Of a stretch of DNA of 64,000 nucleotides, positions 8,561 through 37,582 are shown piece by piece. Origin of the DNA: an uncultured Candidatus Saccharibacteria bacterium (GTDB taxonomy: Bacteria > Patescibacteriota > Minisyncoccia > Minisyncoccales > UBA5738); NCBI GenBank assembly GCA_964470995.1, contig CAYYEP010000004.1, forward strand, positions 2,846 to 66,845, written 5' to 3'. The notes beneath the pieces were generated by a model, which saw only the letters and a program-made list of their open reading frames with translations, made no database searches and was not told the origin of the DNA. The translations under genes and the position numbers were made by a program. Every line of letters starts with the position of its first letter. The stretch's first letter is position 1.

Positions 8561-8593
8561 GCGTTATATCCTTTCCCTTTTTTAGATTCAATT

Positions 8594-8850: not shown

Positions 8851-8868
8851 ATCAATGGGGATTGATAT
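8849..8868. promoter_or_regulatory. Candidate ArsR/SmtB operator (perfect 8-4-8 inverted repeat)
   Basis: atatcaat-gggg-attgatat lies between the -10 element and the start codon at 8869. Confidence 0.45.
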
Positions 8869-9171: not shown

Positions 9172-9228
9172 AATATTCCAGCATTCTTGAGAATGTTGGA
9201 ATGTTGTTAATTGCTAATAATCAAAAAA

Positions 9229-9534
9229 ATGGAGAACAAAATTATTTCAATTGAGGTTATCGGATCGGGATGCGCCAATTGCAAGAAACTGTACGAATTG
9301 GCGGTTTTGGCGGTTAAAGAGTTAAATATCGGGGTTGAGGTTGTATATTCTAATGAAGTTCAAAAGGCTTTGGCAATGGGCGTCCTGCAATTGCCGGTAC
9401 TGGCGGTGAACGGCAAGGCCGTGCTGACCGGGACGGCAGATGCTGATAAGGTTAAAAAAGCGTTGAGCCAGCGTAAGAGCGGCGATAATCAATCGGAATG
9501 CTGTCCTTGCGGCGGGGATTGCGGCTGTTTATAA
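9229..9534 (+). CDS. Thioredoxin-fold 'redox-active disulfide protein 2'-like protein with Cys-rich C-terminal tail
   Basis: MENKIISIEVIGSGCANCKKLYE contains a CxxC. The tail is SECCPCGGDCGCL. ATG at 9229 is preferred over the TTG at 9211 used by the ORF track. Confidence 0.7.
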   Translation: MENKIISIEVIGSGCANCKKLYELAVLAVKELNIGVEVVYSNEVQKALAMGVLQLPVLAVNGKAVLTGTADADKVKKALSQRKSGDNQSECCPCGGDCGCL

Positions 9535-24347: not shown

Positions 24348-25280
24348 ATGTGGAAATATAAATTTACTGTTTTTACTCCGACTTTTAACCGTGCCGCAAC
24401 ATTAAAGCGATGTTACGAACATTTGCTGGGACAGACGTTTAAGGATTTTGAATGGCTGGTTGTGGATGACGGTTCCACTGATGATACCCAATCGGTCGTG
24501 AATGGTTTTATTTTGGAAAATAAAATCAATATCCGGTATTACCGGCAGCATAATTTTGGCAAACCAACCGCGATCAATTGGGGCGTGTCTTTGGCGGCGG
24601 GGGAATTTTTTGTAATTTTGGATTCCGATGATGCTTTGCGCCATGATTATATGGAAATATTGCTCAAGGAATATGACGCTATAGATGCCGCAAAAATAAA
24701 TAAATTTGCCGGAGTGGAAGGATCGACGTGTTCTTTTGGGGGAAAGCTTATCGGAACCGAATTTCCGGTGGGTTACGGATGTGATTTTTTGGATTCGGAT
24801 TTTATGGAGATTCGTTTAAAGCATAAAGTGCGGGGAGATAAACATGGTTTTATAAAGACCGAGATAATGAAGGAATATCCGATGCCGATATTTCCGGGGG
24901 AAAAATATATTACCGAAGCTGTTATTTGGAATCGGATGGCGCAGAAATATTGCGTTAGATTCATTAACGAAAATATTTATTTGGCCGAGTACCGACGCGA
25001 TGGGCTCACGAAAAATTGGGTAAGGATGAGGATGAATAATCCTAAAGGAGGAATGGTTTATTGCCGCGAATTTTTAGGATTTGGGGTAAAAATTCCGATT
25101 TCGGCCATATTGGTGAAGTATAATAATCTGGTGCGTTTTTCTTTGCATGCCGGTAAATTGCCGGATGTGATTTCCGGCATCAAGGGGCCGCGGTTATTGC
25201 TGGCGCCGGTAGCGATTGCGGTGGGAATTTTATTATATTTTAAGGATATATTATTTGTTAGCCGGGAGCTGAAATCTTAA
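24348..25280 (+). CDS. Family 2 glycosyltransferase
   Basis: Motifs FTPTFNRAATLKRCYEHLLGQTFKDFEWLVVDDGSTDDT and ILDSDD, plus a C-terminal TM segment. Confidence 0.8.
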   Translation: MWKYKFTVFTPTFNRAATLKRCYEHLLGQTFKDFEWLVVDDGSTDDTQSVVNGFILENKINIRYYRQHNFGKPTAINWGVSLAAGEFFVILDSDDALRHDYMEILLKEYDAIDAAKINKFAGVEGSTCSFGGKLIGTEFPVGYGCDFLDSDFMEIRLKHKVRGDKHGFIKTEIMKEYPMPIFPGEKYITEAVIWNRMAQKYCVRFINENIYLAEYRRDGLTKNWVRMRMNNPKGGMVYCREFLGFGVKIPISAILVKYNNLVRFSLHAGKLPDVISGIKGPRLLLAPVAIAVGILLYFKDILFVSRELKS

Positions 25281-25290
25281 ATTGATTGTT

Positions 25291-25938
25291 ATGGCAAAGC
25301 TTTTATTATTCGACATAGATGGAACTTTGTTTATCAACGAGGGAGTCTGCTGGCTGATGGAAAATGAGGTTGCTTTAAGTTTGGGGCTTTCTCCGGCGCC
25401 GCGCGGGGCATACCGGGCCAGTTGGCACCAGCCAACGAAGCGAAGGCGGGCAATTAATTATCCCGTTGCCAATCAAAAAATTTTTTCTGATCGTTTTGAG
25501 GAAATGTTTTGCGAACGTTTTAAAAAAAAGCAGATGGATGCATTGAGCGGTGCGACAATTATGACGCTTGAGATTTTAAAGAAACGGCGGAATAAATTAT
25601 CCGTGCTGACGTCGCGCCATTTCCGGGATATGGTCCATTTAACGGGAAAGGATTCGCAGTTTGGCGCGCTATTTGACGGAATTTACCATTCGAATAATGT
25701 AAAATATGGAAAACCCGATCCGCGGGTTTTCGATGGCCCGCTTAGAGATTTTAATACAGAACCCTATGAGGCGGTGTATGTGGGCGATACGGTTGCCGAT
25801 GGTATTTGCGCAAAACAAGCCGGGCTTGGATTTGTGGCGGTATTAGCGGAGGGAGTGTCGGTGCGTGCCGATTTTGAGGGGGTTGCCGTCGATTTTTTTG
25901 CGGATAAGTTTGAGGATATTCTTGATTACTTAAAATGA
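25291..25938 (+). CDS. HAD-superfamily phosphatase (possible sugar-phosphate phosphatase)
   Basis: HAD motif I is LLLFDIDGTL and motif IV is YVGDTVAD. The stop overlaps the otsA start (ATGA at 25935). Confidence 0.75.
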   Translation: MAKLLLFDIDGTLFINEGVCWLMENEVALSLGLSPAPRGAYRASWHQPTKRRRAINYPVANQKIFSDRFEEMFCERFKKKQMDALSGATIMTLEILKKRRNKLSVLTSRHFRDMVHLTGKDSQFGALFDGIYHSNNVKYGKPDPRVFDGPLRDFNTEPYEAVYVGDTVADGICAKQAGLGFVAVLAEGVSVRADFEGVAVDFFADKFEDILDYLK

Positions 25939-28160
25939 AGCAAACCGTATTATTGATATTGGGGATGATCGCCATTATTAGTGTGATTATTTTTGGGTTT
26001 GCCCTAAACCAGGTGCGCGTCGAGCAGATTTCATTGGCTTCGGATCTTGAGTCGCGAACGCGCTTGCTGGCGGAAAGCCTGAAAGAATCAGTTGAGCCGC
26101 TTTATCTTTCGAATTCCGAGGAAGCCCTGCAAAGCGTTATGGATAGATTCACCGACCGGCAACGGTTGCTTGGATTGGCGGTTTACGACAATAAGGGGAA
26201 TTTGGTGGCGGCTTCCGCGGGCTTGCCTGAGGCCGCGATCCAAGGAGCGGTTCTTGCCGGTAAAGTGATGGATGCCAACAAGGAGGCGGGCTTATTCGTG
26301 GAAACCGTGGGCGGAAAAGTCTATGATCTGGCAGTTCCTCTCTACCAAGAAAATGTGGTGGTTGGCGCGTTATTGGTAGTGCAGCGGGCGGATTATATCG
26401 ATGTGGCGATATCGGAAATATGGACAAGCAATTTTTATCGTTTTTTAGTCCAATCCTTGGTTGTGGCATTGACGATAATGATAATCTTGAGGTTCTTTAT
26501 TTTTCGGCCGGTGGCAATGATGGTGTTGTCCATACGCGCGGCGCTATCCGGGAAGATAGATCAAAGATTGGCTAAAGCGAATTATAACTTTTTTAATCCG
26601 TTGGCGCGAGAAATCTCGAGGATAACCAAAAGTTTACTTCAGGCAAGATCGGCGGCAAGCGAAGAAGCAAGAATGCGGCTAAAAAAAATTGATACGCCTT
26701 GGACGGCGGAAAGACTGCAAGAATTCATTAAGGCTTATATGAAAGATAGGAAGATATTCGCAGTTTCCAATACGGAGCCTTATATGCATAAAAAAATCAA
26801 TGGCAAGATCCAATATATTATTCCCGCCAGTGGAGTAATTACGGCAATGGAGCCTGTAATGAGAGCTTGCGGAGGCTTGTGGCTAACTCGCGGCGTTACC
26901 GAAGAAGACAAAATTGTGGTCGGAGCGGATAACAAAATACAAGTTCCTCCGGAAGAGCCGAGGTATATTCTGAAGCGAATATGGCTGACGGAGCAAGAGA
27001 ATAATGGTTTTAATGTTGGTTTTTGCAGTGAGACTTTATGGCCTTTATGCCATTCGGTGTATGTGAGGCCGGTTTTTCGTAAGGATGATTGGCTGGAATA
27101 CCGCCGGGTTAACGGTAAATTTACCGAAAATATTTTGTCGGAAATAAGAAATGTTCAGAGGCCACTAATTTTGGTTCAGGATTATCATTTCGCACTTTTG
27201 CCGCAAATGGTCAAGAAGGCTCGTCCGGATGCGCAAGTAAGCATTTTTTGGCATATACCTTGGCCGAGCGCCGATATTTTTAATGTTTGTCCTTGGAAAA
27301 AGGAAATTTTAGAGGGCATATTGGGAGCGGATGTGATTGGTTTTCACACGCGGCAGTATTGCAATAATTTCATGGATACGGTTTCGAGAGAGATCGAAGC
27401 GGTGGTAGATATGGAGCAATTTTCAATTACGCGGAGCGGCCATACGTCGTATATTAAGCGTATTCCGATAAGCGTGGCATTTAGTAACGGAAAGCCAGTT
27501 TTAAATAATGAAGAAAATAGAAATGCTGATTACGCCAAGCGTTATGGGATCAAAACAAAATATTTGGGGCTGGGGGTCGACAGGCTTGATTATATTAAGG
27601 GTATCCCAGAGCGCTTTAAGGCAATCGAGTTTTTTTTCGATCGGTATCCGCATTATCGGGAGCAGCTTACATTTTTGCAAATTTCACCTTTGAGCCGGCA
27701 GCAAGTTGTCCAATACCAGATTTTCGGCAAAGAAGTTGTCGCAGAAATGGAAAGAATAAATTTAAAATTCGCAACCGATAAATGGCAGCCGATAAGGCTT
27801 GTCAGGGAAAATTTATCGCATGAAGAATTGCATTTTCTTTATCGGCAGGCAAATTTTTGTCTTATTACTTCTTTGCATGATGGAATGAATATGGTGGCGA
27901 AAGAGTACGCGGCGGCGCGTCACGACGATGCGGGAGTCTTGATATTAAGCCAGTTTACCGGCGCTTCGCGCGATATGAAAGGGGCGGTCATTGTGAATCC
28001 ATATAGTGCCGAACAGACGGCGGCGGCGATGCATACCGCAATAACCATGCCTTTGAGCGAGCAGCGGCGGCGAATGGTGAAAATGAGGGAGGCTGTAAAA
28101 AACTATAATGTTTACCGTTGGTCGGCCGAGTTAATTAAAGCAACTGCCGGTTGCGATTAA
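25935..28160 (+). CDS. otsA: Trehalose-6-phosphate synthase (GT20) fused to an N-terminal two-TM sensor-like domain and HAMP-like linker
   Basis: 741 aa. GT20 motifs: LILVQDYHFALLP, FWHIPWPS, DVIGFHT, LGVDRLDYIKGIPERF, TSLHDGMNMVAKEY. N-terminus: TM aa 5-24, a ~142-aa loop, TM aa 167-190, then RPVAMMVLSIRAALSGKIDQRL...NPLAREISRITKSL. Confidence 0.85.
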   Translation: MKQTVLLILGMIAIISVIIFGFALNQVRVEQISLASDLESRTRLLAESLKESVEPLYLSNSEEALQSVMDRFTDRQRLLGLAVYDNKGNLVAASAGLPEAAIQGAVLAGKVMDANKEAGLFVETVGGKVYDLAVPLYQENVVVGALLVVQRADYIDVAISEIWTSNFYRFLVQSLVVALTIMIILRFFIFRPVAMMVLSIRAALSGKIDQRLAKANYNFFNPLAREISRITKSLLQARSAASEEARMRLKKIDTPWTAERLQEFIKAYMKDRKIFAVSNTEPYMHKKINGKIQYIIPASGVITAMEPVMRACGGLWLTRGVTEEDKIVVGADNKIQVPPEEPRYILKRIWLTEQENNGFNVGFCSETLWPLCHSVYVRPVFRKDDWLEYRRVNGKFTENILSEIRNVQRPLILVQDYHFALLPQMVKKARPDAQVSIFWHIPWPSADIFNVCPWKKEILEGILGADVIGFHTRQYCNNFMDTVSREIEAVVDMEQFSITRSGHTSYIKRIPISVAFSNGKPVLNNEENRNADYAKRYGIKTKYLGLGVDRLDYIKGIPERFKAIEFFFDRYPHYREQLTFLQISPLSRQQVVQYQIFGKEVVAEMERINLKFATDKWQPIRLVRENLSHEELHFLYRQANFCLITSLHDGMNMVAKEYAAARHDDAGVLILSQFTGASRDMKGAVIVNPYSAEQTAAAMHTAITMPLSEQRRRMVKMREAVKNYNVYRWSAELIKATAGCD

Positions 28161-28326: not shown

Positions 28327-29571
28327 TCAATGGATAATTTGTTTCATTTTTTGGATCCGAACGTGGGCTTGTTCGATGCGATTGCGCGAGATGCGGCCGT
28401 CGCGCACGGCTTTTAGGATTGCATCCTTGGCGCGATAAGGCATAGTTTCGTCGTAAACCGCGCTGTTGTTGGAGAATACAAGTATGTCGCAGCCGGCATT
28501 AATAGCACTAACAATGGCGTCTTCGAACCCATAGTTGTCAACAATGGCGCCCATTTGCATATCGTCGGAAAAAACTACGCCGTCAAAACCAAGTTTCTGG
28601 CGCAGGATTCCCTGTATGATTTTTTCGGAAAGTGTGGCGGGACAATCAGGGTCGATTTTTTTGTTGATGATGTGGGCGGTCATTACCGAATCGGCGGCGC
28701 CGCCGTCAATAAGTTTTTCGTAGGGGGTAAGTTCGGTTTCGTTCCAGGTAAGCGTGACGTCGGCCAATCCCAGGTGGCTGTCGCGGTCTGAACTTCCGTG
28801 GCCGGGAAAATGCTTTAGCGAAGTTATAATCCCAAAACTTTTATGTGCCGCGATCATGGAGCGAGCAAGTGTGGCGACGGTTTGAGGGTCAGCCGAGTAT
28901 GACCGTTCCAGGCCGCCGATTACCGGGTTGTCGGGATTTGTGTCCAGATCAATTACGGGCGCAAAATTAACGTTAAATCCAAGATCATCGAGTTCTCTAG
29001 CCAATTCCCAGTATGAATTTATGGCGGTGGCGGGATCTTGTCCTAAAGTTTTCGCGCTGGGTATATTTATAAAACCAAGAGAAGGTTTCAAGCGGTTGAT
29101 AAGGCCGCCTTCGGCATCAACCGCGACCAGGAGCGGCAGCTCCTTTGAATAAGTTTTCAATTGGAAAACGAGATCTTTGGTTTGTTCGTAATTGGCAATA
29201 TTGCGGCCGCCGGTACTGGTTGGGACATCGCGGTCAAAAAGGATTACGCCGCCCAGGTTAAGTTCGGAAATTGTATTGGCGATATATGACTCCGGTTGAG
29301 CCTGGGTGCCGCGAAAGCCGATCATAAGCATTTGGCCTACCTTGGCGGAAATATCATCGGCTGGGGCGGCAGGACGCGACTCGAAATATTCCAAAATGAG
29401 CGCGGTTACAAATAAGGCGATAATTGCGGATTTGAATACAGGCCAGTGGTTGCGGGGCACGATTATTTTTTTGAGTAAAGGTTTAAACGGGGCGGATATT
29501 TTTTTTAATGATTTGGCGCAAAAAATATTAACGCTCCGGATCGTGCGTTTGGTTTTTTTTCCGATATTCAT
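28327..29571 (-). CDS. Membrane-anchored GH3 beta-N-acetylhexosaminidase (NagZ-like)
   Basis: 414 aa. Motifs KHFPGHGSSDRDSH, VMTAHI and GVVFSDDMQMGA, with an N-terminal TM segment. Confidence 0.8.
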   Translation of the reverse strand: MNIGKKTKRTIRSVNIFCAKSLKKISAPFKPLLKKIIVPRNHWPVFKSAIIALFVTALILEYFESRPAAPADDISAKVGQMLMIGFRGTQAQPESYIANTISELNLGGVILFDRDVPTSTGGRNIANYEQTKDLVFQLKTYSKELPLLVAVDAEGGLINRLKPSLGFINIPSAKTLGQDPATAINSYWELARELDDLGFNVNFAPVIDLDTNPDNPVIGGLERSYSADPQTVATLARSMIAAHKSFGIITSLKHFPGHGSSDRDSHLGLADVTLTWNETELTPYEKLIDGGAADSVMTAHIINKKIDPDCPATLSEKIIQGILRQKLGFDGVVFSDDMQMGAIVDNYGFEDAIVSAINAGCDILVFSNNSAVYDETMPYRAKDAILKAVRDGRISRNRIEQAHVRIQKMKQIIH

Positions 29572-29635
29572 AGGTTGGCAAGTAAGATTGTTGTTTCTTT
29601 ATATATAGCAGGAATGGTGCTGATGCAAAGAGGCA

Positions 29636-29677
29636 AACAAAAAACCCGCCGTTTCGCGTCGGCGGGTTTTTTGTTTT
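29636..29677. terminator. Bidirectional rho-independent terminator
   Basis: Stem acccgccg/cggcgggt, flanked by an A-run on the left and a T-run on the right. It lies 6 nt downstream of the minus-strand stop at 29683. Confidence 0.7.
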
Positions 29678-29682
29678 TGAGA

Positions 29683-32600
29683 TTATTGAACCGATGTTTC
29701 GGTGATTGCCTGGCTCATAGGCAACACGGTTATCCCTGATGATTTAAGAGCTTCTATTTGTTTGGCAAAGTCGGCGGTTGTGGTGTCGTAGGGTTCGAGG
29801 TCGTCGTTGGTGACGCGATGGTAAACAATAACAAGCCAGGAGTTATCCCTTTTGGCTTGGTCGATCCAGCTTTGGTATTCGGCCAGAGTGGTTGTGGTTT
29901 TTATGTTTTGCACCTTGATGCGGTCGATGTCGTAATTGTTTTGCAGGTTATATCCTTCGTCGGTCGGCCGGTGGGAAGTATAGTATTTTTTAATCGCAGT
30001 CAAAACGGTTTCGTTATAATCGCCGTACGGGGTGGCAAAGCTTTTTATGTTGCCGCTGCCAACAATATTTTCAAGGTAAGTTTTGGATTCGGATAGTTCT
30101 TGATCAAGTTGGGCGGAATCAATTTGTGTTAAAAAAGGATGGGTGATGGAGTGCGATCCGATTTCGTGGCCTTGCTCGTAGATTGATTTGACTGCGGCGG
30201 GGCCGTTCTGGCCAAGATTGTCAATGTTGGCGTTATCCTGCAAATAAGTGGTGGCGAAATAGTAGGTGGATTTGTAGCCATAGTTTGCCAGGGCGGGAAT
30301 AGCAGTCGACGTGTTGGTTTCCCAACTGTCGTCAAAAGTGAGGCTTACTATTGGGCGGGTAAAGCCTTCCGGAACGATTTTGACGTAGGAATAGTCATCG
30401 GTGATCAAGGTGCCGGTGTGCTTGAGCGAATGCAGGATAGTCATTGTATTGGCACCGTAGGGCACGGTGACTATTCCTGAATATCTGGCCCAGCTGTTGT
30501 TGGTTGCGGGCGCGGTTCCCAGTTCAAGATAGCGCGGAATGCCGGATAAATAATTGAAGGCAACGATGAAGTGGGTGGGATCAGTGGCTTTATACCAGTC
30601 GGAGACCATATAAGTTTCGCCAGGTGTAACCTCAATCGGGTCGAAATACCATTTCGCGTCACCATCGGCGCCGTATTTGGTAACTGTTGTTTGCACAGAT
30701 CGATCGCCGCTGTGGCCGCTATCTAGATAAGTGAAATCGGCTTTAATGTCGTCTTTTAGCGTGCTCCAGGCGCTAGTGTGCCAGAGATCGGGGGTGTTGC
30801 CGGCGGGAGAGATTTCGAGTGATGCGTTAGCCGGATTGCCGACGGGGACGGGGGCGACGGTAATCGAATAGTCGTCGGTTGTCAGCGAACAGTTCCCGCG
30901 TTCAATAAGATGCAGGACGGTTATAGTTTTGGCATTGGCGGGAGCGGTGACTACTCCGGCAAACCGGGTCCAATCAGCGCTTTGTGATGCGTTGCCAATT
31001 TCCGGATAAGAGGAGTCTGTGCCATTGTCGTATGTGATCATTGCCGCAACGCGGGTGTCGCAATCAGATTTGTACCAGTCAGTGATTAGATAGCGCAGAC
31101 CGGGGGTTACAGCTACCGGATCAGGATACCATTTCGCGTCCCCGTCGATATAGGAAGTTATCTCAACTCTAGCGCTTTTAGAGCCGTTGTGGGCGTCGTC
31201 ACTATAGTTATAATTTGCCGTATTGTTGCCCCAACCGCCTTGGTTCCAATTGATTGGCAGGGTACTGGAAGCTGCGGTTTCTTCAAGTGATGGATTAAGT
31301 AAAAGATTATCGGTAGGATAATTCCGCCGCACCAAGGCAATTAAGCAGGTTTTGCTATCATTACTAGCTAGGTTTATGCCACCATCGGCGGCACAATCGC
31401 CGCCAAAGGTTATTTTGTATTCAGCCGGGTTAGTGTTTCCGCGGCCGATCACACTGACCGCGTAATTTCCGGCGGCTAGGGTGAGGTGCGAGGTGCTGTT
31501 GCCAAGGTTTTCCATTTCAGCGGCGCCGTTGATCAGCAGGTCGAATTTGCCGTTGTCGCTGACATCAAGACTAATGTTGAGTTTGGCTGGCCCCGGGTTG
31601 TAAGTGTTTGTGAAAGTGCAGGTGACGGTCATACCGTCGGCGATAATAATATTATTTGGAGTTTGACTGTTGTCGCATTTGCCGCCGTCAGAATTCCAGT
31701 TATCGGCCGGCATTTCGGTGATCGAGTAGGTTCCGGCGGCCAGAGTTTGGCGGTTTTCCTGGCCGTTGGAAAGGGCGAATCCTTGATAGCCGCTTCCGGT
31801 GGCAGTGAACATAAAGGCGTTATCTCCGCCCGAAGTTATTTTTTTAACGACAATTGTTCCGGTTGGCGTTTGTTCGGTAAAGGATAGGTCATCCAAAGTG
31901 AGGTTGCCGATTTTGCTTATTGTGTGCAGGACCGAGTATTTGACGGTTTCGGCGGGCAAACAGATACTGGCCGAATATTGCTTCCATGCGGTTGAAGCCG
32001 GAGCATCGGCTAATTTAATGGTAGAGGCGACATTGGATGAGTTGTAGGCGACGACCGATACCTGCGATACAATGTTTGATTTGTACCAGTCGCTAAAAAC
32101 ATAGCATTTGCCGCCGGTTATTGCTTGCGGCGCAAAATACCAGCGAGCAAAGCCGTTGGTATATCTGGTAATTGTGGTTTTAACACTCATTGATCCGGTG
32201 TGGCCGGTGCCGGACGCGTAAGTGAACGCGGCTGAGTTGGTGCCGTTTTTTTCTTTAATCCATCCCAGGGGAAGATTGGTGCGGGGGTCGGTTTCTTCAA
32301 GCGAGGAGTTGGGGACATTCCCGTTGACGGTTGGGTCGGGAATTTGGATTAGCGAGTAATTATCGGTTTGTAGGGTGCCTTTCGCGGCGAGCAATTGGAA
32401 GACGGTTGCTTTTACCGCGCCCGCGGGGGCGGTAAACGAGTAGGCGGATTTGGTCCAAATAATTTTTGCTGCATTATTTCCCAAAAGCGCGTAGGTTTTA
32501 ATTCCCGCTGAATTTTGGAATTCGGCGTAGGTTTTGGTGGGGGCGGTGGCTTTATAGTAATTCGTAAAATAATAAGTTTTTCCCGCGGTTACCTCCACCG

Positions 32601-32877
32601 GATCAAAAAACCATCGGGTGTCGCCGTTTGTATAGGCCGAAACGGTGATTTTGACCGATTTGGAACCGTTTTGCGCGCTGCCGGTGACGTAATAAAATGA
32701 TGAGGTATTTGTTCCGGATTTGGCCGCGGTCCAACCGGAAGGAGTCTTGCGCGTTGAAGCGGCGGTTTCCAGTGATGGGTTGGAAATCAAGTTGGTGGCG
32801 GCGGTAACGTGTCCCGCATAGAACGCGATTGGGACAATAAGCGACAGAATGAAGCCGGTTATTTTTGTTTTTTGCAT
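29683..32877 (-). CDS. Secreted multi-domain protein: four CBM4_9-like modules, a prealbumin/SpaA-like fold domain and a C-terminal NodB-type polysaccharide deacetylase
   Basis: 1064 aa with a signal peptide. Repeated NxSLE...GW...W(Y/F)FxP...Y modules are present. The segment TGTIVVKKIT...TCTFTN is prealbumin/SpaA-like. Deacetylase motifs are VSLTFDDSW and GHEIGSHSITHP. Confidence 0.75.
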   Translation of the reverse strand: MQKTKITGFILSLIVPIAFYAGHVTAATNLISNPSLETAASTRKTPSGWTAAKSGTNTSSFYYVTGSAQNGSKSVKITVSAYTNGDTRWFFDPVEVTAGKTYYFTNYYKATAPTKTYAEFQNSAGIKTYALLGNNAAKIIWTKSAYSFTAPAGAVKATVFQLLAAKGTLQTDNYSLIQIPDPTVNGNVPNSSLEETDPRTNLPLGWIKEKNGTNSAAFTYASGTGHTGSMSVKTTITRYTNGFARWYFAPQAITGGKCYVFSDWYKSNIVSQVSVVAYNSSNVASTIKLADAPASTAWKQYSASICLPAETVKYSVLHTISKIGNLTLDDLSFTEQTPTGTIVVKKITSGGDNAFMFTATGSGYQGFALSNGQENRQTLAAGTYSITEMPADNWNSDGGKCDNSQTPNNIIIADGMTVTCTFTNTYNPGPAKLNISLDVSDNGKFDLLINGAAEMENLGNSTSHLTLAAGNYAVSVIGRGNTNPAEYKITFGGDCAADGGINLASNDSKTCLIALVRRNYPTDNLLLNPSLEETAASSTLPINWNQGGWGNNTANYNYSDDAHNGSKSARVEITSYIDGDAKWYPDPVAVTPGLRYLITDWYKSDCDTRVAAMITYDNGTDSSYPEIGNASQSADWTRFAGVVTAPANAKTITVLHLIERGNCSLTTDDYSITVAPVPVGNPANASLEISPAGNTPDLWHTSAWSTLKDDIKADFTYLDSGHSGDRSVQTTVTKYGADGDAKWYFDPIEVTPGETYMVSDWYKATDPTHFIVAFNYLSGIPRYLELGTAPATNNSWARYSGIVTVPYGANTMTILHSLKHTGTLITDDYSYVKIVPEGFTRPIVSLTFDDSWETNTSTAIPALANYGYKSTYYFATTYLQDNANIDNLGQNGPAAVKSIYEQGHEIGSHSITHPFLTQIDSAQLDQELSESKTYLENIVGSGNIKSFATPYGDYNETVLTAIKKYYTSHRPTDEGYNLQNNYDIDRIKVQNIKTTTTLAEYQSWIDQAKRDNSWLVIVYHRVTNDDLEPYDTTTADFAKQIEALKSSGITVLPMSQAITETSVQ

Positions 32878-33121
32878 ATTATTTTGATTTTATGAAGCCG
32901 ATGGTTCATTTCCCGGGTATGGCCGGGCGAATAACTAATGAATAAGAATTAATGGATTAATAATAGCCGATAATCGTTAATTAGCAATTAAAGATGTTAA
33001 TAATGTCCGCCATTAGTTGTCCTATGCAGATATTGTACTATAATATTTATCTTTTTAAAAAGAGTTGTCTTTCTAATTTGGATAACAGCGGTATTTTGTT
33101 AAATCGGTTATGGGATTTTTG

Positions 33122-33150
33122 TTGACAAATGATTGGTTGGTTTCTAGAAT
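33122..33150 (+). promoter_or_regulatory. Sigma-70-type promoter upstream of the sensor kinase gene
   Basis: TTGACA (33122-33127), a 17-nt spacer, then TAGAAT (33145-33150). Confidence 0.45.
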
Positions 33151-33216
33151 GAGATACCAGTCAGATCTCTTTAATCGCCAGAATATTTGTCCGCATAAGG
33201 GGGGTTCATCATCCAT

Positions 33217-36200
33217 ATGAGCGGAGCGCGGAAAAAAATTACCGAAGCTGGCATTGAGCAAGCAGCCGAACAAGTTGCTGGTTTTGAGTTGAGTCGCGCT
33301 AACAAGGCCAAATCCGGGGACATAGGTAATCCGATGATTGTCGAATACGAAGCATCGGGTAAGATAACCTTGTTTAATAAACGAGCCAGCGAATTTTTTG
33401 GGTATGCCGCCAAAGAGGTGTTGGGTAAGGATATTTCAATTCTGGCGTACGGGCGGAGCCGTACGGATGATGCCAAAAGGGGGATCACCGGTATCCATCA
33501 AAACATTTTTAACGATCCGGCGGATGGGGGATCTCATATTAACGCAAACAGGCGGCGCGATGGCCGGCGGGTATGGGTATCCTGGCAAAGCCGTCCAATT
33601 GTTTTTAAGAACGGGAAGCCGGCGATAATAGCGGCCGCGGGACGCGATGTCACATACCAAATTGAAAATGATGATTCCTTAAGGGATCTAAAAAAAATTG
33701 TCGGATCGATTAACGACGGGGTGGGGATAGCCGATAGAGACGGCGTATTGGTTTTTGCCAACGAACAAGCGGCAAAGATGATTGGTTACCGTTCCAAAGA
33801 GATGGTCGGAAAACGGATTATGGATTTTGTTGTGGATGAGGACAAAAAAATTATTGAGGAAGCTTTCGTAAGGAGGCGGGAAGGGTTTGCCGGGAGTTAC
33901 GAATTACGAATGAAACATCGGAGCGGCGGTGTTGTGGAAACGTCGATTTTTGGGGCGCCCCGTTATGGTCGGAAGGGTTCTTATATTGGATCTTATGCAA
34001 TAATCAGCGATATAACAGAGCGTAATCGCAACGAGCGGAATTTGCGCCGGATGAATCGGACATTACGAGCTTTGGGGAGGGCCAATAAGGCGCTTTTGCG
34101 CGCCGGCGACGAAAAAAATCTTTTACAGGACGTGTGCAAAATAATTGCTGAAGAATGCGGTAATTCGATGGTTTGGATTGGTTTTGCGCGCGAAGATGAA
34201 GAAAAAGGCGTTGATGTGGCGGCGCAAATCGGCATGGCTCGGGATTATTTGCAAACAATAAATATATCTTGGGGGGACAATGATCGAGGGCGCAGCCCGA
34301 TGGGGACTTGTATCAGAACAGGTAAGATGCGAATTTGCCGAAATATTAAAAAAGATCCGAATTTTAATCTTTGGCGTCCGATAGCGGAACGTTACGGTTA
34401 CGCGTCTGCGGCCGCTTTTCCGTTGCGAAGCAACGGAAATACTTTTGGCGCGATTGGGATATATTCGCGCAACGTGGATGGTTTTTCGGATGATGAGACT
34501 GTTCTTTTGGGTGATTTGGCAGATAATCTAGCGTATGGCATTGTTTCGTTGCGATTACGCAACGAACGCCAGCAAAATGAGGATATGCTTCGCAAGGCAA
34601 CGCGCTATCTGGACAGTCTTTTGAGCTTTGCCAATTCGCCAATCATTGTTTGGGGCCCGGATTTCAGGGTTACGCGCTTTAATACCGCGGCTGAACGTTT
34701 AACCGGAATAAAGGCGGCGCAGGCTTTGGGCAAGGATGCGGATTTTTTCTTTTCATGCACAGGGATTGGCCGTAGGCGTGGCAGTTTTAAATCGGTGTCT
34801 TTGGATCAGCGATGGAAAACCATGGAGGCAGATTTTTGCCGGGCCGACGGATCAAGGCGCGCCGTGGTGTGGAATTTGGCCAATATTTATGGTTACGGCA
34901 CTGAGATAGACAAGGTAGTGGCAACGATTGCGCTGGGCCAGGATATTACCGATCGCAAGATTGCCCAGGAACAAATCGAGAAATATTTGGCGGAACTTTC
35001 CCGCGAGAAGAAAAGGATCGAAAATTTGATGTTGCGAATCGCTGATGAGAAGAAAATATTGGACGGTATCATTGAAAATACCGAGGCTCTGATTGCCTAT
35101 TTGGATAACCGTTTTAATTTTGTGAAAGTTAATACGGGTTATTGCCGAGAGTATAATCTTGCGCCGAAGGACATGATCGGCAAGAATTTTTTTTCTTTTT
35201 TTGCCGATTCGGAAGAAGAAGTGAAAGCGATGTTGAAGAAGCTGCGCCGGGAAGGCGTAGCGATAAAGCAGTTGGCGATACCGTATTATAATGAGCGGCA
35301 TCCGGAGAGGGGGATAGTCTATCGGGATCTTATGGCGTCGCCGATAAAAGATGCCGCCGGAAACGTATCCGGGATAGTGCTGCTTTATCTTGACGCGACA
35401 CAGCGCGTGCGCAATGAGAAGACCCTGGCGCTGCATTCCAGGCGGTTGCAGCAAATGGTCAGCGATCTTCGAAAGCTTCAAATGGCGGTCGAAAATGCTT
35501 CAGATATTATTTTTACCGCCGATCCGCATGGAATGATTACTTCGATCAATAACGCGGTATTGTCGATACTGGGCTGGTGCCCCCAGGATCTTATCGGGAA
35601 ATCAGTAACGGTGCTGGGCGGTACGGAAAGACGGCAGGAGCACGGTGCGGTTTGGGATTCAATACGAAAGCAAAAAAAACCGTTTTCCGGTGAAATAGCG
35701 AACACTAGGATCGATGGCCGGACAGCTGATTTTGAATTGCATGTGTCTCCGATTATCGATTTGCGGGGCGAAGTTATTTCATATATTGGAATCGAACGTG
35801 ATTTGACCGAAGCCAAGGCGGTGAGCCGAGCCAAAGAGGAATTTATTTCCATGGCGTCGCACCAGTTGCGTACGCCGTTGGCCACAATCAGTTTAAGCGC
35901 TCAAATGCTGGCTAACGGGGCGATTGGCAATATTGACAATGAAGCCCGAGGACAAATTGAGGAGATATTCAAGATTACGCACCAAATGGCATCGCTTATC
36001 GATCTTTTTCTGAATGCTTCCCGCATCGAGATGGGCCGTTTGGAAATAGATCCTCATCCGCTTGAAGTCGCTCCGTTTCTTCATGAAATTATTAAGTCGA
36101 TTGGTTCTTTGGCCGCGGTTAAAAAGATTGAGTTGAAGGATGAGATCGCGCCTGATGTTCCGGTTTTAAGCATTGACCGCAAAGTTATGAATATGGTTTT

Positions 36201-36537
36201 GGAAAATTTACTGACGAATGCTCTAAAATATACGCCGTCGGGCGGTATTGTAACCCTGTCGGCCAAAAAGCAAGGGCAGGAGGTAGTTTTTGGCGTGGCG
36301 GATACGGGCAGGGGCATACCCAAGAAGCAATTTCATTTGTTGTTTAGCAAGATGTTCCGTGCCAGTAATGTTGGTGATGCCACTGGTTACGGATTGGGTC
36401 TTTCGATGGCTAAAAGCGTAGTAGAACAGAGCGGCGGGAGAATTTGGGCGCAGACGAAGTTGAACCGGGGATCTACGTTTTTTGTAGCGATTCCGGTTTC
36501 CGGCATGAAGCGCAGGCAAATTACCTTCGAGTCTTAA
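33217..36537 (+). CDS. Soluble multi-PAS/GAF sensor histidine kinase
   Basis: 1106 aa with no TM segment. It contains several PAS-like repeats and a GAF-like region. The H-box is FISMASHQLRTPL and the HATPase motifs are LLTNALKYTP, DTGRGIP and GYGLGLSMAK. Confidence 0.85.
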   Translation: MSGARKKITEAGIEQAAEQVAGFELSRANKAKSGDIGNPMIVEYEASGKITLFNKRASEFFGYAAKEVLGKDISILAYGRSRTDDAKRGITGIHQNIFNDPADGGSHINANRRRDGRRVWVSWQSRPIVFKNGKPAIIAAAGRDVTYQIENDDSLRDLKKIVGSINDGVGIADRDGVLVFANEQAAKMIGYRSKEMVGKRIMDFVVDEDKKIIEEAFVRRREGFAGSYELRMKHRSGGVVETSIFGAPRYGRKGSYIGSYAIISDITERNRNERNLRRMNRTLRALGRANKALLRAGDEKNLLQDVCKIIAEECGNSMVWIGFAREDEEKGVDVAAQIGMARDYLQTINISWGDNDRGRSPMGTCIRTGKMRICRNIKKDPNFNLWRPIAERYGYASAAAFPLRSNGNTFGAIGIYSRNVDGFSDDETVLLGDLADNLAYGIVSLRLRNERQQNEDMLRKATRYLDSLLSFANSPIIVWGPDFRVTRFNTAAERLTGIKAAQALGKDADFFFSCTGIGRRRGSFKSVSLDQRWKTMEADFCRADGSRRAVVWNLANIYGYGTEIDKVVATIALGQDITDRKIAQEQIEKYLAELSREKKRIENLMLRIADEKKILDGIIENTEALIAYLDNRFNFVKVNTGYCREYNLAPKDMIGKNFFSFFADSEEEVKAMLKKLRREGVAIKQLAIPYYNERHPERGIVYRDLMASPIKDAAGNVSGIVLLYLDATQRVRNEKTLALHSRRLQQMVSDLRKLQMAVENASDIIFTADPHGMITSINNAVLSILGWCPQDLIGKSVTVLGGTERRQEHGAVWDSIRKQKKPFSGEIANTRIDGRTADFELHVSPIIDLRGEVISYIGIERDLTEAKAVSRAKEEFISMASHQLRTPLATISLSAQMLANGAIGNIDNEARGQIEEIFKITHQMASLIDLFLNASRIEMGRLEIDPHPLEVAPFLHEIIKSIGSLAAVKKIELKDEIAPDVPVLSIDRKVMNMVLENLLTNALKYTPSGGIVTLSAKKQGQEVVFGVADTGRGIPKKQFHLLFSKMFRASNVGDATGYGLGLSMAKSVVEQSGGRIWAQTKLNRGSTFFVAIPVSGMKRRQITFES

Positions 36538-36567
36538 GAAACGTCTGAGTTGGTAAAAAATTCATCG

Positions 36568-36747
36568 CCCTGCTAAATGCAAGGGGTATTAAAGTTTGTT
36601 TTAATAAATTACCCCGGGGCAGAGCCCCGCGGTAATCTTTATGTTTCGCTTATGCTACGCGTTAGGAAAAGTTTGTTTATAGTTTTCGCTACGCTACGGG
36701 CAGTTATTCATCCCCGCGTCAAAGCAGGCAGGGTATTCTGGCAGATA
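36568..36747 (-). repeat. Copy B (inverted) of the ~176-bp dispersed element
   Basis: Its reverse complement aligns with 21521-21696. It has the hairpin cggggc-aga-gccccg at the position equivalent to the hairpin in copy A. It sits between the convergent kinase and regulator genes. Confidence 0.75.
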
Positions 36748-36904
36748 AATAAACTATTTTGGGGGTTAAATAAGACCTTTGCAAATTTTTCCGTGTCCGG
36801 GCGCCTTTTTTTTGAAAAACATCTTTGAGGTATTCTTTTAAAATATAGACTCGATCATGCAAAATCAAAAATCAACTTCGCAGAGGTTTTTTGAGTTTAG
36901 AGCA

Positions 36905-37582
36905 TTATTTGGAGCGGAGGCGGTAACCAACTCCGCGGATAGTTTCTAAAAGTTTGCGGGAGCGGTTTTTGTCGATTTTGGAGCGCAAGCGGTTAATATA
37001 GACATCGACAATGTTGGACATTGAATCGAAGTCGAAGTCCCAGATATTTTGCAAGATGTCTTCGCGTTCGAGTACTTGGTCGGGATGGCGCATAAAATAT
37101 TCCATCAGCCTGAATTCTTTGAGGGTGAGTTTAAGCGTTTTACCGCCGCGCGAGGCGCTTTTCATAGATGGCACCAGAATAAGATCGTTGACCTTGAGTT
37201 CTGTAGCGATCACCGGTTTGGGCCGGCGGGTGAGGGCGCGGATACGTGCCAGCAGTTCGTTAAAGTGAAATGGTTTCACCAGATAATCATCGGCGCCGGC
37301 ATCCAGCAGGGTGACTTTGTCTTCAAGCGAATCGCGCGCGGTCAGAACCAGAATGGGGAGGGAGATGTTGAGTTTGCGGACATCGCGGCAGACTTCCAAA
37401 CCGCTTTTTTGGGGCAGGGTGAGGTCGGCAATGACCAGATCGTAATCCTGGTGGTGCATTTCAATGCGCCGCTGGCCGGTTTCTCCATCGAGAACGTAAT
37501 CGACGGCATAGCCTTCGCGAGTGAGGCCGATTTTGACGATCTTGGCCAGGTTTTCCTCGTCCTCGATAATAAGAATTTTCAT
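36905..37582 (-). CDS. OmpR/PhoB-family response regulator
   Basis: 225 aa. The receiver domain shows MKILIIEDE...DLVIADLTLP. The winged-helix C-terminus shows LTLKEFRLMEYF...TIRGVGYRL. Confidence 0.9.
   Translation of the reverse strand: MKILIIEDEENLAKIVKIGLTREGYAVDYVLDGETGQRRIEMHHQDYDLVIADLTLPQKSGLEVCRDVRKLNISLPILVLTARDSLEDKVTLLDAGADDYLVKPFHFNELLARIRALTRRPKPVIATELKVNDLILVPSMKSASRGGKTLKLTLKEFRLMEYFMRHPDQVLEREDILQNIWDFDFDSMSNIVDVYINRLRSKIDKNRSRKLLETIRGVGYRLRSK

What the first reader, a model, noticed from the sequence alone, without database searches (positions are those of the whole stretch)
24348..28160. Trehalose-6-phosphate synthase fused to a transmembrane sensor and HAMP-like module, in a GT2-HAD-OtsA operon
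Seen: the 741-aa protein has clear GT20 motifs (DYHFALLP, FWHIPWPS, RLDYIKGIPERF, HDGMNMVAKEY). These are preceded by a TM helix (aa 5-24), a loop of about 142 aa, a second TM helix (aa 167-190) and a HAMP-like segment beginning RPVAMMVLSIRAALSGKIDQRL. The HAD phosphatase stop overlaps its start (ATGA at 25935), and the GT2 gene ends 10 nt before the HAD ATG. Established: canonical OtsA is a soluble enzyme of about 470 aa. Two-TM plus HAMP is the input architecture of histidine kinases and chemoreceptors. Inference: the enzyme may be gated directly by an extracytoplasmic signal, a one-component sensor-enzyme. The HAD protein may act as the phosphatase in place of a canonical OtsB, and the GT2 may further modify the product.
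Basis: partly seen in the sequence, partly recalled or inferred. Interest (0 to 1): 0.55.

Follow-up and report, generated by a model that had tools for sequence, protein, structure and literature searches.

The report
Membrane sensor fused to trehalose-phosphate synthase
This gene encodes a trehalose-6-phosphate synthase attached to a membrane-spanning sensor module of the kind found on the WalK histidine kinase; the fusion is real, widespread in several bacterial phyla and undescribed in the papers I could search, so it may let cells switch on a protective sugar directly from an outside signal, but this particular copy has lost two residues that normally hold the substrate.

Summary
All three ORFs, both gene junctions, the GT20 motifs, the two TM helices and the post-TM2 segment are as described.

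- **N-terminal module.** It consists of TM1, a WalK-type single Cache domain, TM2, a divergent HAMP-like helix-connector-helix, and a very conserved linker.
- **Not rare, not an artefact.** Proteins of ~740-760 aa with this architecture occur throughout Patescibacteria (213 matching stretches in species-representative genomes). They also occur in Nitrospirota, Acidobacteriota, Bacteroidota and Ignavibacteriae. All are annotated simply as "trehalose-6-phosphate synthase". I found no paper describing the architecture.
- **The "GT2-HAD-OtsA operon" is not typical of the family.** In 41 of 65 informative CPR loci a canonical otsB follows within a few nucleotides. In Nitrospira the gene lies between treT and otsB, next to MscS channel genes and an ion exchanger. 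Only the window's small subclade has an upstream HAD-IA gene (3 of 4 lineages) and no otsB.
This copy alone replaces the glucose-6-phosphate-binding Arg9 and Tyr76 equivalents (T280, N360) and a near-invariant Asn (S365). Donor-site residues are intact. Its substrate or activity is therefore uncertain.

The best reading is a receptor-type trehalose-phosphate synthase. Signal gating is inferred, not shown.

The parts
24348..25280 (+). GT2-family glycosyltransferase, 310 aa, with a hydrophobic C-terminal segment. Its stop lies 10 nt before the HAD ATG.
   Evidence: ORF; PF00535, E 4e-27; junction. An orthologue (57% identity) lies upstream of the fusion in the P0003 locus only. It is absent from P0002, P0004 and the 80 other loci.
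25291..25938 (+). HAD-IA-type phosphatase, 215 aa from the ATG (218 aa from TTG at 25282). Its stop overlaps the start of the fusion gene (ATGA).
   Evidence: Motifs seen: DIDGT, TSR, KPDP, GDTVAD. Orthologues (42-47% identity) lie directly upstream of the fusion in the P0002 and P0004 loci. It has no Trehalose_PPase (PF02358) hit.
25935..28160 (+). Whole fusion gene, 741 aa: TM1, Cache, TM2, HAMP-like segment, linker, GT20.
25947..26006 (+). TM1 (aa ~5-24). It continues into the long first helix of the Cache domain.
   Evidence: hydropathy. (helix 2-58).
26025..26393 (+). Extracytoplasmic single Cache (PDC-fold) domain, WalK-like (aa 31-153).
   Evidence: family profile against PDB 5is1/4ywz/7dud, E 5e-5 to 5e-4. 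(dCache_1 in 8/14 members, Cache_WalK in 7/14, SMP_2 in 7/14). (Foldseek prob 1.0, TMt 0.67-0.76).
26433..26504 (+). TM2 (aa ~167-190).
   Evidence: (continuous helix 153-205).
26505..26654 (+). Divergent HAMP-like helix-connector-helix (aa 191-240), with invariant P192, G206, P222 and E226.
   Evidence: H to 205, loop 206-220, H from 221. (the whole module aligns to the full-length WalK model 9a5d, TMq 0.70). (the five best PDB hits are Af1503 HAMP, E 0.12-0.95). (hhalign 79%, E 1.6e-5). (Pfam HAMP sub-threshold in 2 homologues). (invariants).
26655..26744 (+). Family-specific linker (aa 241-270, ASEEARMRL..D.PWTAERL...). It is the most conserved part of the N-terminal half and leads directly into GT20 strand 1.
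   Evidence: mean conservation 0.88. (W256, T257, R260, L261 and E263 invariant in the 15-sequence cross-phylum alignment).
26757..28139 (+). GT20 (OtsA/Tps1-like) catalytic domain, aa 275-735.
   Evidence: E 1e-111. (TIGR02400 397 bits, below its 565 cut-off). (C. albicans Tps1 5huv E 1e-70; E. coli OtsA 1gz5 E 1e-56).
26772..26774 (+). Codon ACG = T280, at the position of E. coli OtsA Arg9 (acceptor phosphate contact). Arg in 117/120 family members.
27012..27029 (+). Codons AAT (N360, the Tyr76 equivalent; Tyr in 115/120) to AGT (S365; Asn in 118/120), in the acceptor loop upstream of W369 (the Trp85 equivalent).

Best explanation
The 741-aa protein belongs to a large, cross-phylum, uncharacterised family of membrane-embedded 'receptor-type' trehalose-6-phosphate synthases. 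The topology is N-in: TM1, an extracytoplasmic WalK-like single Cache domain, TM2, a divergent HAMP-like module, a strongly conserved helical linker, and a cytoplasmic GT20 domain. For the family, gene context points to trehalose synthesis for osmotic or ionic stress adaptation: otsB directly downstream, with treT, MscS channels, cation pumps or exchangers and a GH63/trehalase-like hydrolase nearby. Proposed mechanism (inferred): the protein dimerises through the Cache stalk, TM helices and HAMP. A signal outside the membrane changes HAMP and linker packing. Because the linker runs straight into strand 1, which carries the acceptor-phosphate arginine, this changes how the acceptor-binding N-lobe closes on the donor lobe and so sets catalytic rate. 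Cue and synthesis would then be coupled in one protein, without transcription. In this window the gene belongs to a small CPR subclade in which otsB is absent next to the gene. A translationally coupled HAD-IA phosphatase gene lies upstream and probably supplies the phosphatase step. The GT2 is an occasional neighbour of unknown relation. This particular copy has remodelled its acceptor pocket (Arg9 to Thr, Tyr76 to Asn, plus 5 more unique changes nearby). It therefore either uses glucose-6-phosphate poorly, uses another acceptor, or is drifting.
For: Shown:
- Architecture.
- HAMP-like landmarks invariant in a 15-sequence alignment of CPR and non-CPR homologues, and weak but consistently placed HAMP signals.
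- Family size and taxonomic spread: all 120 best hits 672-798 aa, 114 of them 720-760; CPR; 213 stretches in species-representative genomes; Acidobacteriota, Nitrospirota, Thermodesulfovibrionales, Ignavibacteriae, Bacteroidota.
- OtsB directly downstream in 41/65 informative CPR loci, median gap 4 nt.
- Nitrospira locus order MscS, MscS/DUF5752, TreT, fusion, OtsB, Na/Ca exchanger. A second non-CPR locus has DUF5752, TreT, fusion, OtsB, CLC.
- Donor-site residues and 3 of 5 acceptor residues conserved: with residue roles from PMC1769515.
- The extracytoplasmic domain has residues invariant in the cross-phylum alignment.
- The same sensor module is fused to a different enzyme (GCS2) in P0203.
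- HAD orthologues with intact motifs adjacent in 3 of 4 close lineages, and no OtsB, TreT or MGH homologue in the 64-kb window.
- Substrate binding closes the N-lobe in Tps1 (PMC11317593), which makes the N-terminal linker a plausible lever.
Against: - No experiment or ligand is known, and gating is inferred from architecture alone.
- HAMP membership is sub-threshold by sequence: Pfam HAMP hits 0/26 family segments, and the best hit in a homologue has E 0.09.
- WalK-type Cache domains have no established small-molecule ligand (my own knowledge). Most invariant residues lie in the stalk helices and not in the sheet. The module could therefore be mainly an anchor or dimeriser.
- The window copy lacks the Arg9 and Tyr76 equivalents and is the most deviant of 120 members at conserved columns: 15 deviations against a median of 4. 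TPS paralogues lacking several such residues fail to complement tps1 mutants (PMC1769515).
- NCBIfam OtsA equivalog cut-offs are not reached.
- Only 64 kb of the genome is visible, so an otsB elsewhere cannot be excluded.
Confidence: 0.6

Rival explanations
1. Anchor or scaffold only. The N-terminal module merely tethers and dimerises the synthase at the membrane, for example to place trehalose synthesis near channels, transporters or envelope glycosylation. It does not transmit a signal, and activity is controlled by substrate supply or transcription.
For: No ligand is known for WalK-type Cache domains (my own knowledge). The invariant residues concentrate in the membrane-proximal helices. 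The HAMP signal is weak. AF2 confidence is lowest across the connector and linker (pLDDT 52-72).
Against: A plain anchor would not need a folded ~125-aa extracytoplasmic domain with residues invariant from CPR to Nitrospirota, nor the invariant P, G, P, E landmarks of HAMP and an 88%-conserved linker. The same module is reused on an unrelated enzyme, which is how input modules behave.
Confidence: 0.25
2. This window's copy is no longer a trehalose-6-phosphate synthase. Either it has shifted to a different acceptor, and the HAD-IA gene (possibly with the GT2) processes a different product, or it is catalytically weakened and on the way to a regulatory or pseudo-enzyme role like class II plant TPS or yeast Tsl1/Tps3.
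For: R280T, Y360N and N365S fall at positions that are 96-98% conserved. Four further unique changes (A318T, G322T, A324E, H376Y) lie beside the Trp40 and Trp85 equivalents. Deviations are enriched within 8 residues of acceptor contacts (7 of 15, post-hoc p 0.003) and not near donor contacts. Tyr76 binds the acceptor phosphate and positions Arg9 (PMC3288074). Paralogues lacking such residues do not complement (PMC1769515). No otsB is adjacent.
Against: The ORF is intact and full length. All donor residues and the W316, W369 and R588 acceptor residues are kept. The N-terminal module is as conserved as in relatives. The closest relative P0002 (74% identity) has the same HAD neighbour but canonical R, Y and N, so the HAD association predates the pocket changes. 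With a 5-residue window the enrichment is not significant (p 0.10). VldE/ValL tolerates Gln at the Tyr76 position with a phosphorylated acceptor.
Confidence: 0.35
3. Artefact: the fusion arises from a frameshift, a mis-assembly, or a wrongly merged sensor gene and otsA gene.
For: None found.
Against: It is a single uninterrupted ORF. The identical protein is on three contigs from NCBI and Logan assemblies. Hundreds of independent homologues have the same length and full coverage in many phyla.
Confidence: 0.01

Closest known systems
Canonical soluble OtsA / Tps1 (E. coli OtsA, PDB 1gz5/1uqt; C. albicans Tps1, 5huv/5hut)
   Same: The GT20 GT-B catalytic domain aligns end to end (E 1e-56 to 1e-70). 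Equivalents of the donor-site residues Gly22, Asp130, His154, Arg262, Lys267, Asp361 and Glu369, and of the acceptor residues Trp40, Trp85 and Arg300, are present. Family members are normally followed by otsB.
   Different: It has a 270-aa N-terminal TM, Cache, TM, HAMP-like and linker module that OtsA lacks. NCBIfam OtsA equivalog scores fall below their cut-offs. In this copy the Arg9 and Tyr76 equivalents are Thr and Asn. A HAD-IA gene takes the place of otsB.
WalK (YycG) sensor histidine kinase, N-terminal input region
   Same: Same order of TM1, single Cache, TM2 and HAMP. The family profile hits WalK extracellular domain structures (E 5e-5). NCBIfam WalK aligns to aa 5-252 (E 5e-7). Foldseek aligns all 271 residues to the full-length WalK model 9a5d (E 3e-11, TMq 0.70).
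   Different: The output is a glycosyltransferase and not a PAS-DHp-CA kinase core. There is no phosphorelay. Identity is only 13-20%. No YycH/YycI partners are evident near the gene.
Transmembrane Cache/HAMP receptors with enzymatic outputs (diguanylate cyclases, adenylate cyclases, Ser/Thr phosphatases or kinases, chemoreceptors)
   Same: The same design logic: an extracytoplasmic sensor, two TM helices and HAMP, then a cytoplasmic effector in one polypeptide.
   Different: GT20 is not among the recognised signalling output domains. The main Cache survey selected only proteins with such outputs (PMC4822843), so this class fell outside its design. No paper in the searchable library links HAMP or Cache to a glycosyltransferase output.
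Class II plant TPS and yeast Tsl1/Tps3 (GT20 paralogues lacking substrate-binding residues)
   Same: A GT20 domain with several acceptor or donor contacts replaced. Such proteins fail to complement tps1 mutants (PMC1769515). This parallels the T280/N360 state of the window copy.
   Different: Here only acceptor-side residues are changed and the donor side is intact. There is no fused TPP-like domain. The protein is bacterial and membrane-bound.
Bifunctional OtsA-OtsB fusion (NCBIfam PRK14501, ~730 aa)
   Same: Similar total length, and the best-scoring NCBIfam model over the GT20 part (449 bits).
   Different: The extra ~270 aa are N-terminal and form a sensor, whereas PRK14501 proteins carry a C-terminal phosphatase. 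The match covers only model positions 3-461 of 729.

Membership tests
GT20 / trehalose-6-phosphate synthase (OtsA) | GT20 domain above Pfam's gathering score | tested here: met
   PF00982, 374.5 bits against a cut-off of 32.5, aa 275-735.
GT20 / trehalose-6-phosphate synthase (OtsA) | Reaches the NCBIfam OtsA equivalog cut-off (TIGR02400, PRK10117 or PRK14501) | tested here: not met
   397 against 565, 240 against 759 and 449 against 634 bits. OtsA is still the best-scoring functional model; GgpS scores 278.
GT20 / trehalose-6-phosphate synthase (OtsA) | UDP-glucose-binding residues (Gly22, Asp130, His154, Arg262, Lys267, Asp361, Glu369 of E. coli OtsA) | tested here: met
   G300, D416, H440, R550, K555, D649 and E657 are all present and 99-100% conserved in the family. 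Residue list from PMC1769515; Lys267 is from my own knowledge.
GT20 / trehalose-6-phosphate synthase (OtsA) | Glucose-6-phosphate-binding residues (Arg9, Trp40, Tyr76, Trp85, Arg300) | tested here: not met
   The window has T280 and N360 at the Arg9 and Tyr76 positions. W316, W369 and R588 are kept. The rest of the family meets this feature (R in 117/120, Y in 115/120).
GT20 / trehalose-6-phosphate synthase (OtsA) | Genetic linkage to a trehalose-6-phosphate phosphatase (OtsB, PF02358) | tested here: not met
   No OtsB homologue in the 64-kb window. The feature is met for the family: 41/65 CPR loci and both non-CPR loci examined.
GT20 / trehalose-6-phosphate synthase (OtsA) | Catalyses NDP-glucose + glucose-6-phosphate to trehalose-6-phosphate | not testable with these tools
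   Needs an enzyme assay.
Cache superfamily (single Cache, WalK type) | Occupies the whole extracytoplasmic region between two TM helices | tested here: met
   The loop between TM1 and TM2 (aa ~25-166) holds one folded domain whose first and last helices are continuous with the TM helices. The criterion comes from PMC4822843.
Cache superfamily (single Cache, WalK type) | Sequence match to Cache models or solved Cache domains | tested here: met
   The family profile hits WalK extracellular domains at E 5e-5 to 5e-4. dCache_1 hits 8/14 members, Cache_WalK 7/14, and SMP_2 (a Cache-superfamily member) 7/14. The window sequence alone is marginal: SMP_2 scores 29.2 bits on the 271-aa N-terminal fragment and 28.2 on the full protein against a cut-off of 28.9, and dCache_1 has E 0.0035.
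Cache superfamily (single Cache, WalK type) | PDC/Cache fold: long N-terminal helix, five-stranded sheet, C-terminal helix | tested here: met
   AF2 secondary structure (pLDDT 73-93 over the domain). Foldseek prob 1.0 to WalK, KinD, Mlp24, Tlp3 and CitA sensor domains, TMt up to 0.76.
HAMP domain | Lies directly after the last TM helix; ~50 aa helix, connector, helix | tested here: met
   Helix to residue 205, loop 206-220, helix from 221. It aligns with the HAMP region of the full-length WalK model.
HAMP domain | Significant match to the Pfam HAMP model (PF00672) or to solved HAMP domains | tested here: inconclusive
   Pfam HAMP hits 0/26 family segments. It gives sub-threshold hits at the homologous place in 2/10 non-CPR homologues (E 0.09 and 0.23, 12-13 bits against a cut-off of 25). 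In the profile-against-PDB search the five best hits are all Af1503 HAMP, but with E 0.12-0.95. hhalign against Af1503 HAMP gives 79% probability and pairwise E 1.6e-5, with a connector 7 aa longer.
HAMP domain | Conserved landmark residues (Pro at the start of AS1, Gly at the end of AS1, Glu at the start of AS2) | tested here: met
   P192, G206 and E226 are invariant in the 15-sequence alignment of CPR and non-CPR members. They align to the P, G and E of Af1503 HAMP.
HAMP domain | Forms a parallel four-helix bundle in a homodimer and transmits conformational signals | not testable with these tools
   Only monomer prediction is available here. It needs a multimer model or an experiment.
HAD superfamily phosphatase (subfamily IA) | Four catalytic motifs (DxDxT, S/T, K, DD/GDxxxD) | tested here: met
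   FDIDGT, LTSR, KPDP and GDTVAD are conserved in the window and in the P0002 and P0004 neighbours. PF13419 E 2e-20; TIGR01549 is above its cut-off.
OtsB / trehalose-phosphatase (PF02358, HAD-IIB) | Match to the Trehalose_PPase model | tested here: not met
   No PF02358 hit for the window HAD. It would be a non-orthologous replacement and not an OtsB. Specificity for trehalose-6-phosphate cannot be tested here.

The most novel reading that the evidence does not exclude
A cross-phylum class of one-protein osmotic or envelope sensors in which an extracytoplasmic Cache domain controls a GT-B glycosyltransferase through a HAMP-like transducer. Compatible-solute (trehalose) synthesis would then be switched at the enzyme level by an external cue, without a kinase, a second messenger or transcription. 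This would add metabolic glycosyltransferases, and on the evidence of P0203 also carboxylate-amine ligases, to the list of HAMP/Cache outputs. It would also suggest that genome-reduced CPR bacteria rely on such direct sensor-enzyme wiring.
Probability: 0.4. Interest if true: 0.72.

Novelty: new variant of a known kind. Interest (0 to 1): 0.55.

Why it matters
How bacteria adjust compatible-solute synthesis quickly after an osmotic shift is usually explained by transcription or by ion effects on soluble enzymes. A synthase with its own extracytoplasmic sensor and transducer would be a direct, testable route from cue to product. The family is large, with hundreds of CPR lineages plus Nitrospirota, Acidobacteriota, Bacteroidota and Ignavibacteriae. 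Its members are annotated simply as 'trehalose-6-phosphate synthase', so the sensor half goes unnoticed in routine annotation, and signalling-domain surveys that require a classical output domain would not include it. For HAMP and Cache research it offers a new output type with an easy biochemical read-out. For CPR biology it concerns one of the few stress-response routes these small genomes keep. The window's own copy, with a remodelled acceptor pocket and a non-orthologous phosphatase partner, is a natural experiment on substrate specificity in GT20.

Tried and rejected
- **N-terminus-only homology search.** It returned just 26 truncated fragments of the same family, which gave no help in finding other outputs.
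- **Exhaustive representative search.** It gave 1629 hits, but only the best 150 are listed and most are fragments, so the distant tail (possible kinases sharing this sensor) could not be seen.
- **Window's neighbours in related loci.** I looked for the GT2, HAD, GH3, HIT and nucleotidyltransferase genes in 80 related loci and found none. The idea of a conserved GT2-HAD-GT20 operon is rejected.
- **OtsB, TreT, MGH, MscS, P-type ATPase or CLC homologues in the window.** tblastn found none.
- **HAD remnant in the 375-nt gap of the P0003 locus.** None found.
- **Promoter and terminator scan of 23.6-28.5 kb.** Counts were at shuffle level and uninformative.
- **Pfam HAMP on the isolated segment.** No hits.
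- **AFDB50 fold search.** The library was unavailable.
- **tRNA and Rfam scans of the window.** Nothing found.
- **Compensating arginine.** I considered R319 as a replacement for the lost R280, but Arg occurs there in 5/120 members, so it is not specific.
- **Mutational data for the Arg9 or Tyr76 equivalents.** The C. neoformans Tps1 paper reports only the Arg300 equivalent.

Full report

Yes. They are a GT2 glycosyltransferase (24348-25280), a HAD hydrolase (ATG 25291, or TTG 25282, to 25938) and a 741-aa protein (25935-28160). The GT2 stop is 10 nt before the HAD ATG, and the HAD stop overlaps the next start as ATGA.

Pfam places GT20 at aa 275-735 (E 1e-111), with clear GT2 and HAD_2 hits for the neighbours. 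A hydropathy scan finds exactly two strongly hydrophobic segments, aa ~2-28 and ~167-200. Basic residues follow TM2 and the loop is acidic. This fits an N-in topology with the loop outside and the GT20 domain in the cytoplasm, which is where its nucleotide-sugar and sugar-phosphate substrates are.

**2. What the N-terminal 270 residues are**

*Cache domain.*
- The window sequence alone gives only marginal hits. These are SMP_2 at about its cut-off, and an NCBIfam WalK alignment over aa 5-252 at E 5e-7.
- A profile of 14 family N-termini (A1) matches the solved extracellular domain of S. aureus WalK (5is1, 4ywz, 7dud) at E 5e-5 to 5e-4 over aa 31-153.
- Individual members hit dCache_1 (8/14), Cache_WalK (7/14), SMP_2 (7/14) and ArlS_N (6/14).
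- AlphaFold2 models of the full protein (pLDDT 82) and of the N-terminus (pLDDT 80) agree. They show helix 2-58 running out of TM1, a short helix, a five-stranded sheet (78-151), then one helix 153-205 running through TM2. A loop follows at 206-220, then helix 221-252, a break, and helix 258-269 leading into GT20.
- Foldseek aligns all 271 residues to the full-length B. subtilis WalK integrative model (9a5d_A, E 3e-11, TMq 0.70). It aligns the loop to WalK, KinD, Mlp24, Tlp3 and CitA sensor domains.

The loop is therefore a single Cache (PDC-fold) domain of the WalK type.

*HAMP-like segment.* The evidence here is weaker.
- For: its position, its length, the helix-connector-helix shape and the alignment to WalK's HAMP region. 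P192, G206, P222 and E226 are invariant in a 15-sequence alignment that includes Nitrospirota, Bacteroidota and Ignavibacteriae homologues.
- For: a profile of the segment ranks the archetypal Af1503 HAMP as its five best PDB hits, gapless over 50 residues, but at E 0.12-0.95.
- For: hhalign against the Af1503 HAMP gives 79% probability (pairwise E 1.6e-5) with a connector 7 residues longer.
- Against: Pfam HAMP hits none of 26 family segments. It hits only 2 of 10 non-CPR homologues, sub-threshold, at the homologous position.

I call it a divergent HAMP-like transducer. Strict membership is not settled.

*Linker.* The segment after it (aa 241-270, ASEEARMRL..D.PWTAERL) is the most conserved part of the N-terminal half. 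Canonical OtsA has no counterpart to it.

**3. How common the fusion is**

- All 120 best homologues of the full protein are 672-798 aa (114 of them 720-760), with 53-74% identity and 91-100% coverage. They come from many CPR lineages and are named simply "trehalose-6-phosphate synthase" where named at all.
- A scan of species-representative genomes with two N-terminal motifs found 213 stretches encoding the module. The best 80 are nearly all Patescibacteria. This is a lower bound, because the motifs are CPR-specific.
- A divergent member with a duplicated Cache module (P0150) led to hundreds of ~750-aa proteins of the same architecture. The named ones come from Acidobacteriota, Nitrospirota/Nitrospira, Thermodesulfovibrionales, Ignavibacteriae and Bacteroidota.
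- One relative (P0203) has the same sensor module on a GCS2 carboxylate-amine ligase domain instead of GT20.

The fusion is thus neither an artefact nor rare.

I found no paper that describes it. Searches combining trehalose-6-phosphate synthase with Patescibacteria, CPR, HAMP, Cache, transmembrane or output domain returned nothing relevant. The main Cache survey selected only proteins carrying classical signalling outputs (PMC4822843), so this class was outside its design.

**4. Gene context**

None of the 80 related loci contains a homologue of the window's GT2, HAD or other neighbours.

What does recur is a ~261-aa gene directly downstream on the same strand, with a median gap of 4 nt. It is a canonical trehalose-phosphatase (PF02358). 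Among 65 loci with a full-length gene and at least 900 nt downstream:

| Neighbour | Loci |
|---|---|
| OtsB (PF02358) | 41 |
| Inositol-monophosphatase-family gene in the OtsB position | 5 |
| TreT | 9 |
| MGH1/GH63-like hydrolase | 12 |
| P-type cation ATPase | 14 |

In a Nitrospira genome the order is Band7, MscS, MscS/DUF5752, TreT, fusion, OtsB, Na/Ca exchanger. A second non-CPR genome has DUF5752, TreT, fusion, OtsB, CLC channel. This is the context expected for compatible-solute synthesis under osmotic or ionic stress. It supports trehalose-6-phosphate as the family's product.

The window has no OtsB, TreT or related gene in its 64 kb. Its closest relatives show a different pattern:
- P0002 (74% identity) has an orthologous HAD-IA gene immediately upstream, with no intergenic gap.
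- P0004 (64%) also has an orthologous HAD-IA gene immediately upstream, with an 18-nt gap.
- P0003 (65%) has the GT2 orthologue (57% identity) but no HAD.
- None of them has OtsB.

The HAD catalytic motifs are intact in all three HADs. The GT2 link is weak.

**5.

In E. coli OtsA, glucose-6-phosphate is bound by Arg9, Trp40, Tyr76, Trp85 and Arg300 (PMC1769515). Tyr76 contacts the acceptor phosphate and positions Arg9 (PMC3288074).

I aligned the window protein to C. albicans Tps1 and counted back from the conserved LWP tryptophan. This gives three departures at near-invariant positions:

| Window residue | E. coli OtsA position | Family residue |
|---|---|---|
| T280 | Arg9 | Arg in 117/120 |
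| N360 | Tyr76 | Tyr in 115/120 |
| S365 | Asn81 | Asn in 118/120 |

- Even the 74%-identical P0002 keeps R, Y and N.
- W316, W369, R588 and every donor-site residue are retained.
- The window protein has the most deviations at columns conserved in at least 93% of the 120 members: 15, against a median of 4 and a next highest of 12.
- Seven of these lie within 8 residues of acceptor contacts (post-hoc hypergeometric p 0.003; p 0.10 with a 5-residue window). There is no excess near donor contacts.
- Each change is a single-nucleotide substitution.

The acceptor pocket of this copy has therefore been remodelled. Whether that means weaker activity, a new acceptor or incipient decay cannot be decided here. 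TPS paralogues lacking several of these residues do not complement tps1 mutants. On the other hand, VldE/ValL works with Gln at the Tyr76 position.

**6. Most likely mechanism**

*Shown:* the architecture, its conservation across phyla, and the trehalose and osmotic gene context of the family.

*Inferred:*
1. The protein dimerises through the Cache stalk, the TM helices and the HAMP-like bundle.
2. An extracytoplasmic cue alters HAMP and linker packing.
3. The linker leads within about ten residues into strand 1, which normally carries the acceptor-phosphate arginine.
4. The N-lobe is the part that moves on substrate binding in Tps1 (PMC11317593). The signal would therefore tune lobe closure and catalytic rate.

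Most invariant Cache residues lie in the membrane-proximal helices (R41, L45, E51, A152, I155, W163, N166, R169). This fits either transmission of a physical or envelope signal or a mainly structural role.

The main rival for the family is a passive membrane anchor and dimeriser (confidence 0.25). For this copy, the rival is loss or change of trehalose-6-phosphate synthase function (0.35). An artefact is excluded.

**7. Comparison with known systems and verdict**

- It works like a Cache-HAMP transmembrane receptor whose output is an enzyme.
- Its input module is closest to WalK's.
- Its output is a GT20 domain closest to OtsA/Tps1.
- It is a member of GT20 and of the Cache superfamily.
- It is not shown to be an equivalog of OtsA: the NCBIfam cut-offs are not reached, and in this copy two acceptor residues are missing.
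- HAMP membership is inconclusive.

I rate it a new variant of a known kind. The sensor-transducer-enzyme design is familiar, but a glycosyltransferase that makes a compatible-solute precursor is, as far as I could find, an undescribed output.

Interest is 0.55. The locus itself is an ordinary member of a very large family, which lowers the surprise. Against that, the family is widespread and unstudied, it is easy to test biochemically, and this copy adds a remodelled acceptor site and a replaced phosphatase partner.

Noticed in passing
window 1-64000: Very strong strand asymmetry. GC skew is +0.22 overall (G 17443, C 11183) and still +0.17 inside minus-strand genes, so it is not a coding-strand effect. 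29 of 33 ORFs of at least 200 aa are on the + strand.
   Followed up: partly
window 1-8000: GC content is 0.33-0.36, against 0.42-0.50 in the rest of the window. The region holds three large + strand ORFs (995-4426, 4474-6300, 6281-8044). It may be an island or a laterally acquired block.
   Followed up: no
L090:3373-5445 (protein P0203): The same TM, Cache, TM, HAMP-like module (profile positions 4-237) is fused to a GCS2 glutamate-cysteine-ligase-family domain instead of GT20. The gene is on a 6.9-kb metagenomic contig. This is a second enzymatic output for this sensor.
   Followed up: partly
proteins P0150, P0299-P0301 (913-931 aa, one named Acidobacteriota): A variant of the family with a duplicated Cache module (two tandem copies) ahead of TM2, the HAMP-like segment and GT20.
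   Followed up: partly
six of the 80 CPR loci, e.g. L035:4865-5689: An inositol-monophosphatase-family gene (PF00459) sits directly downstream of the fusion, where OtsB normally is. This is a second apparent non-orthologous replacement of the phosphatase, besides the HAD-IA in the window's subclade.
   Followed up: partly
L088 (Nitrospira) 1232-9311 and L089 3113-9616: In non-CPR members the fusion lies in a cluster with MscS channels, a DUF5752 protein, a TreT-like GT4, OtsB and a Na/Ca exchanger or CLC channel. DUF5752 recurs next to TreT in both loci and has no known function.
   Followed up: no
L084:5626-6001: The 375-nt intergenic region between the GT2 and the fusion gene in the P0003 locus contains a ~35-nt GC-rich direct repeat, present twice (AAACTAyCGCGC..CCCAAGGCGCCCCGGTA).
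   Followed up: no
window 28327-37582: Downstream, on the opposite strand, are a GH3 (NagZ-like) protein with an N-terminal hydrophobic segment and a 1064-aa protein with a C-terminal polysaccharide deacetylase domain and fourfold internal repeats. A 1106-aa PAS/GAF histidine kinase and a response regulator follow. These are envelope-related genes, but they are not conserved next to the fusion in other genomes.
   Followed up: no
window 1-64000: No tRNA genes (ARAGORN) and no Rfam family at gathering threshold anywhere in the 64 kb.
   Followed up: yes
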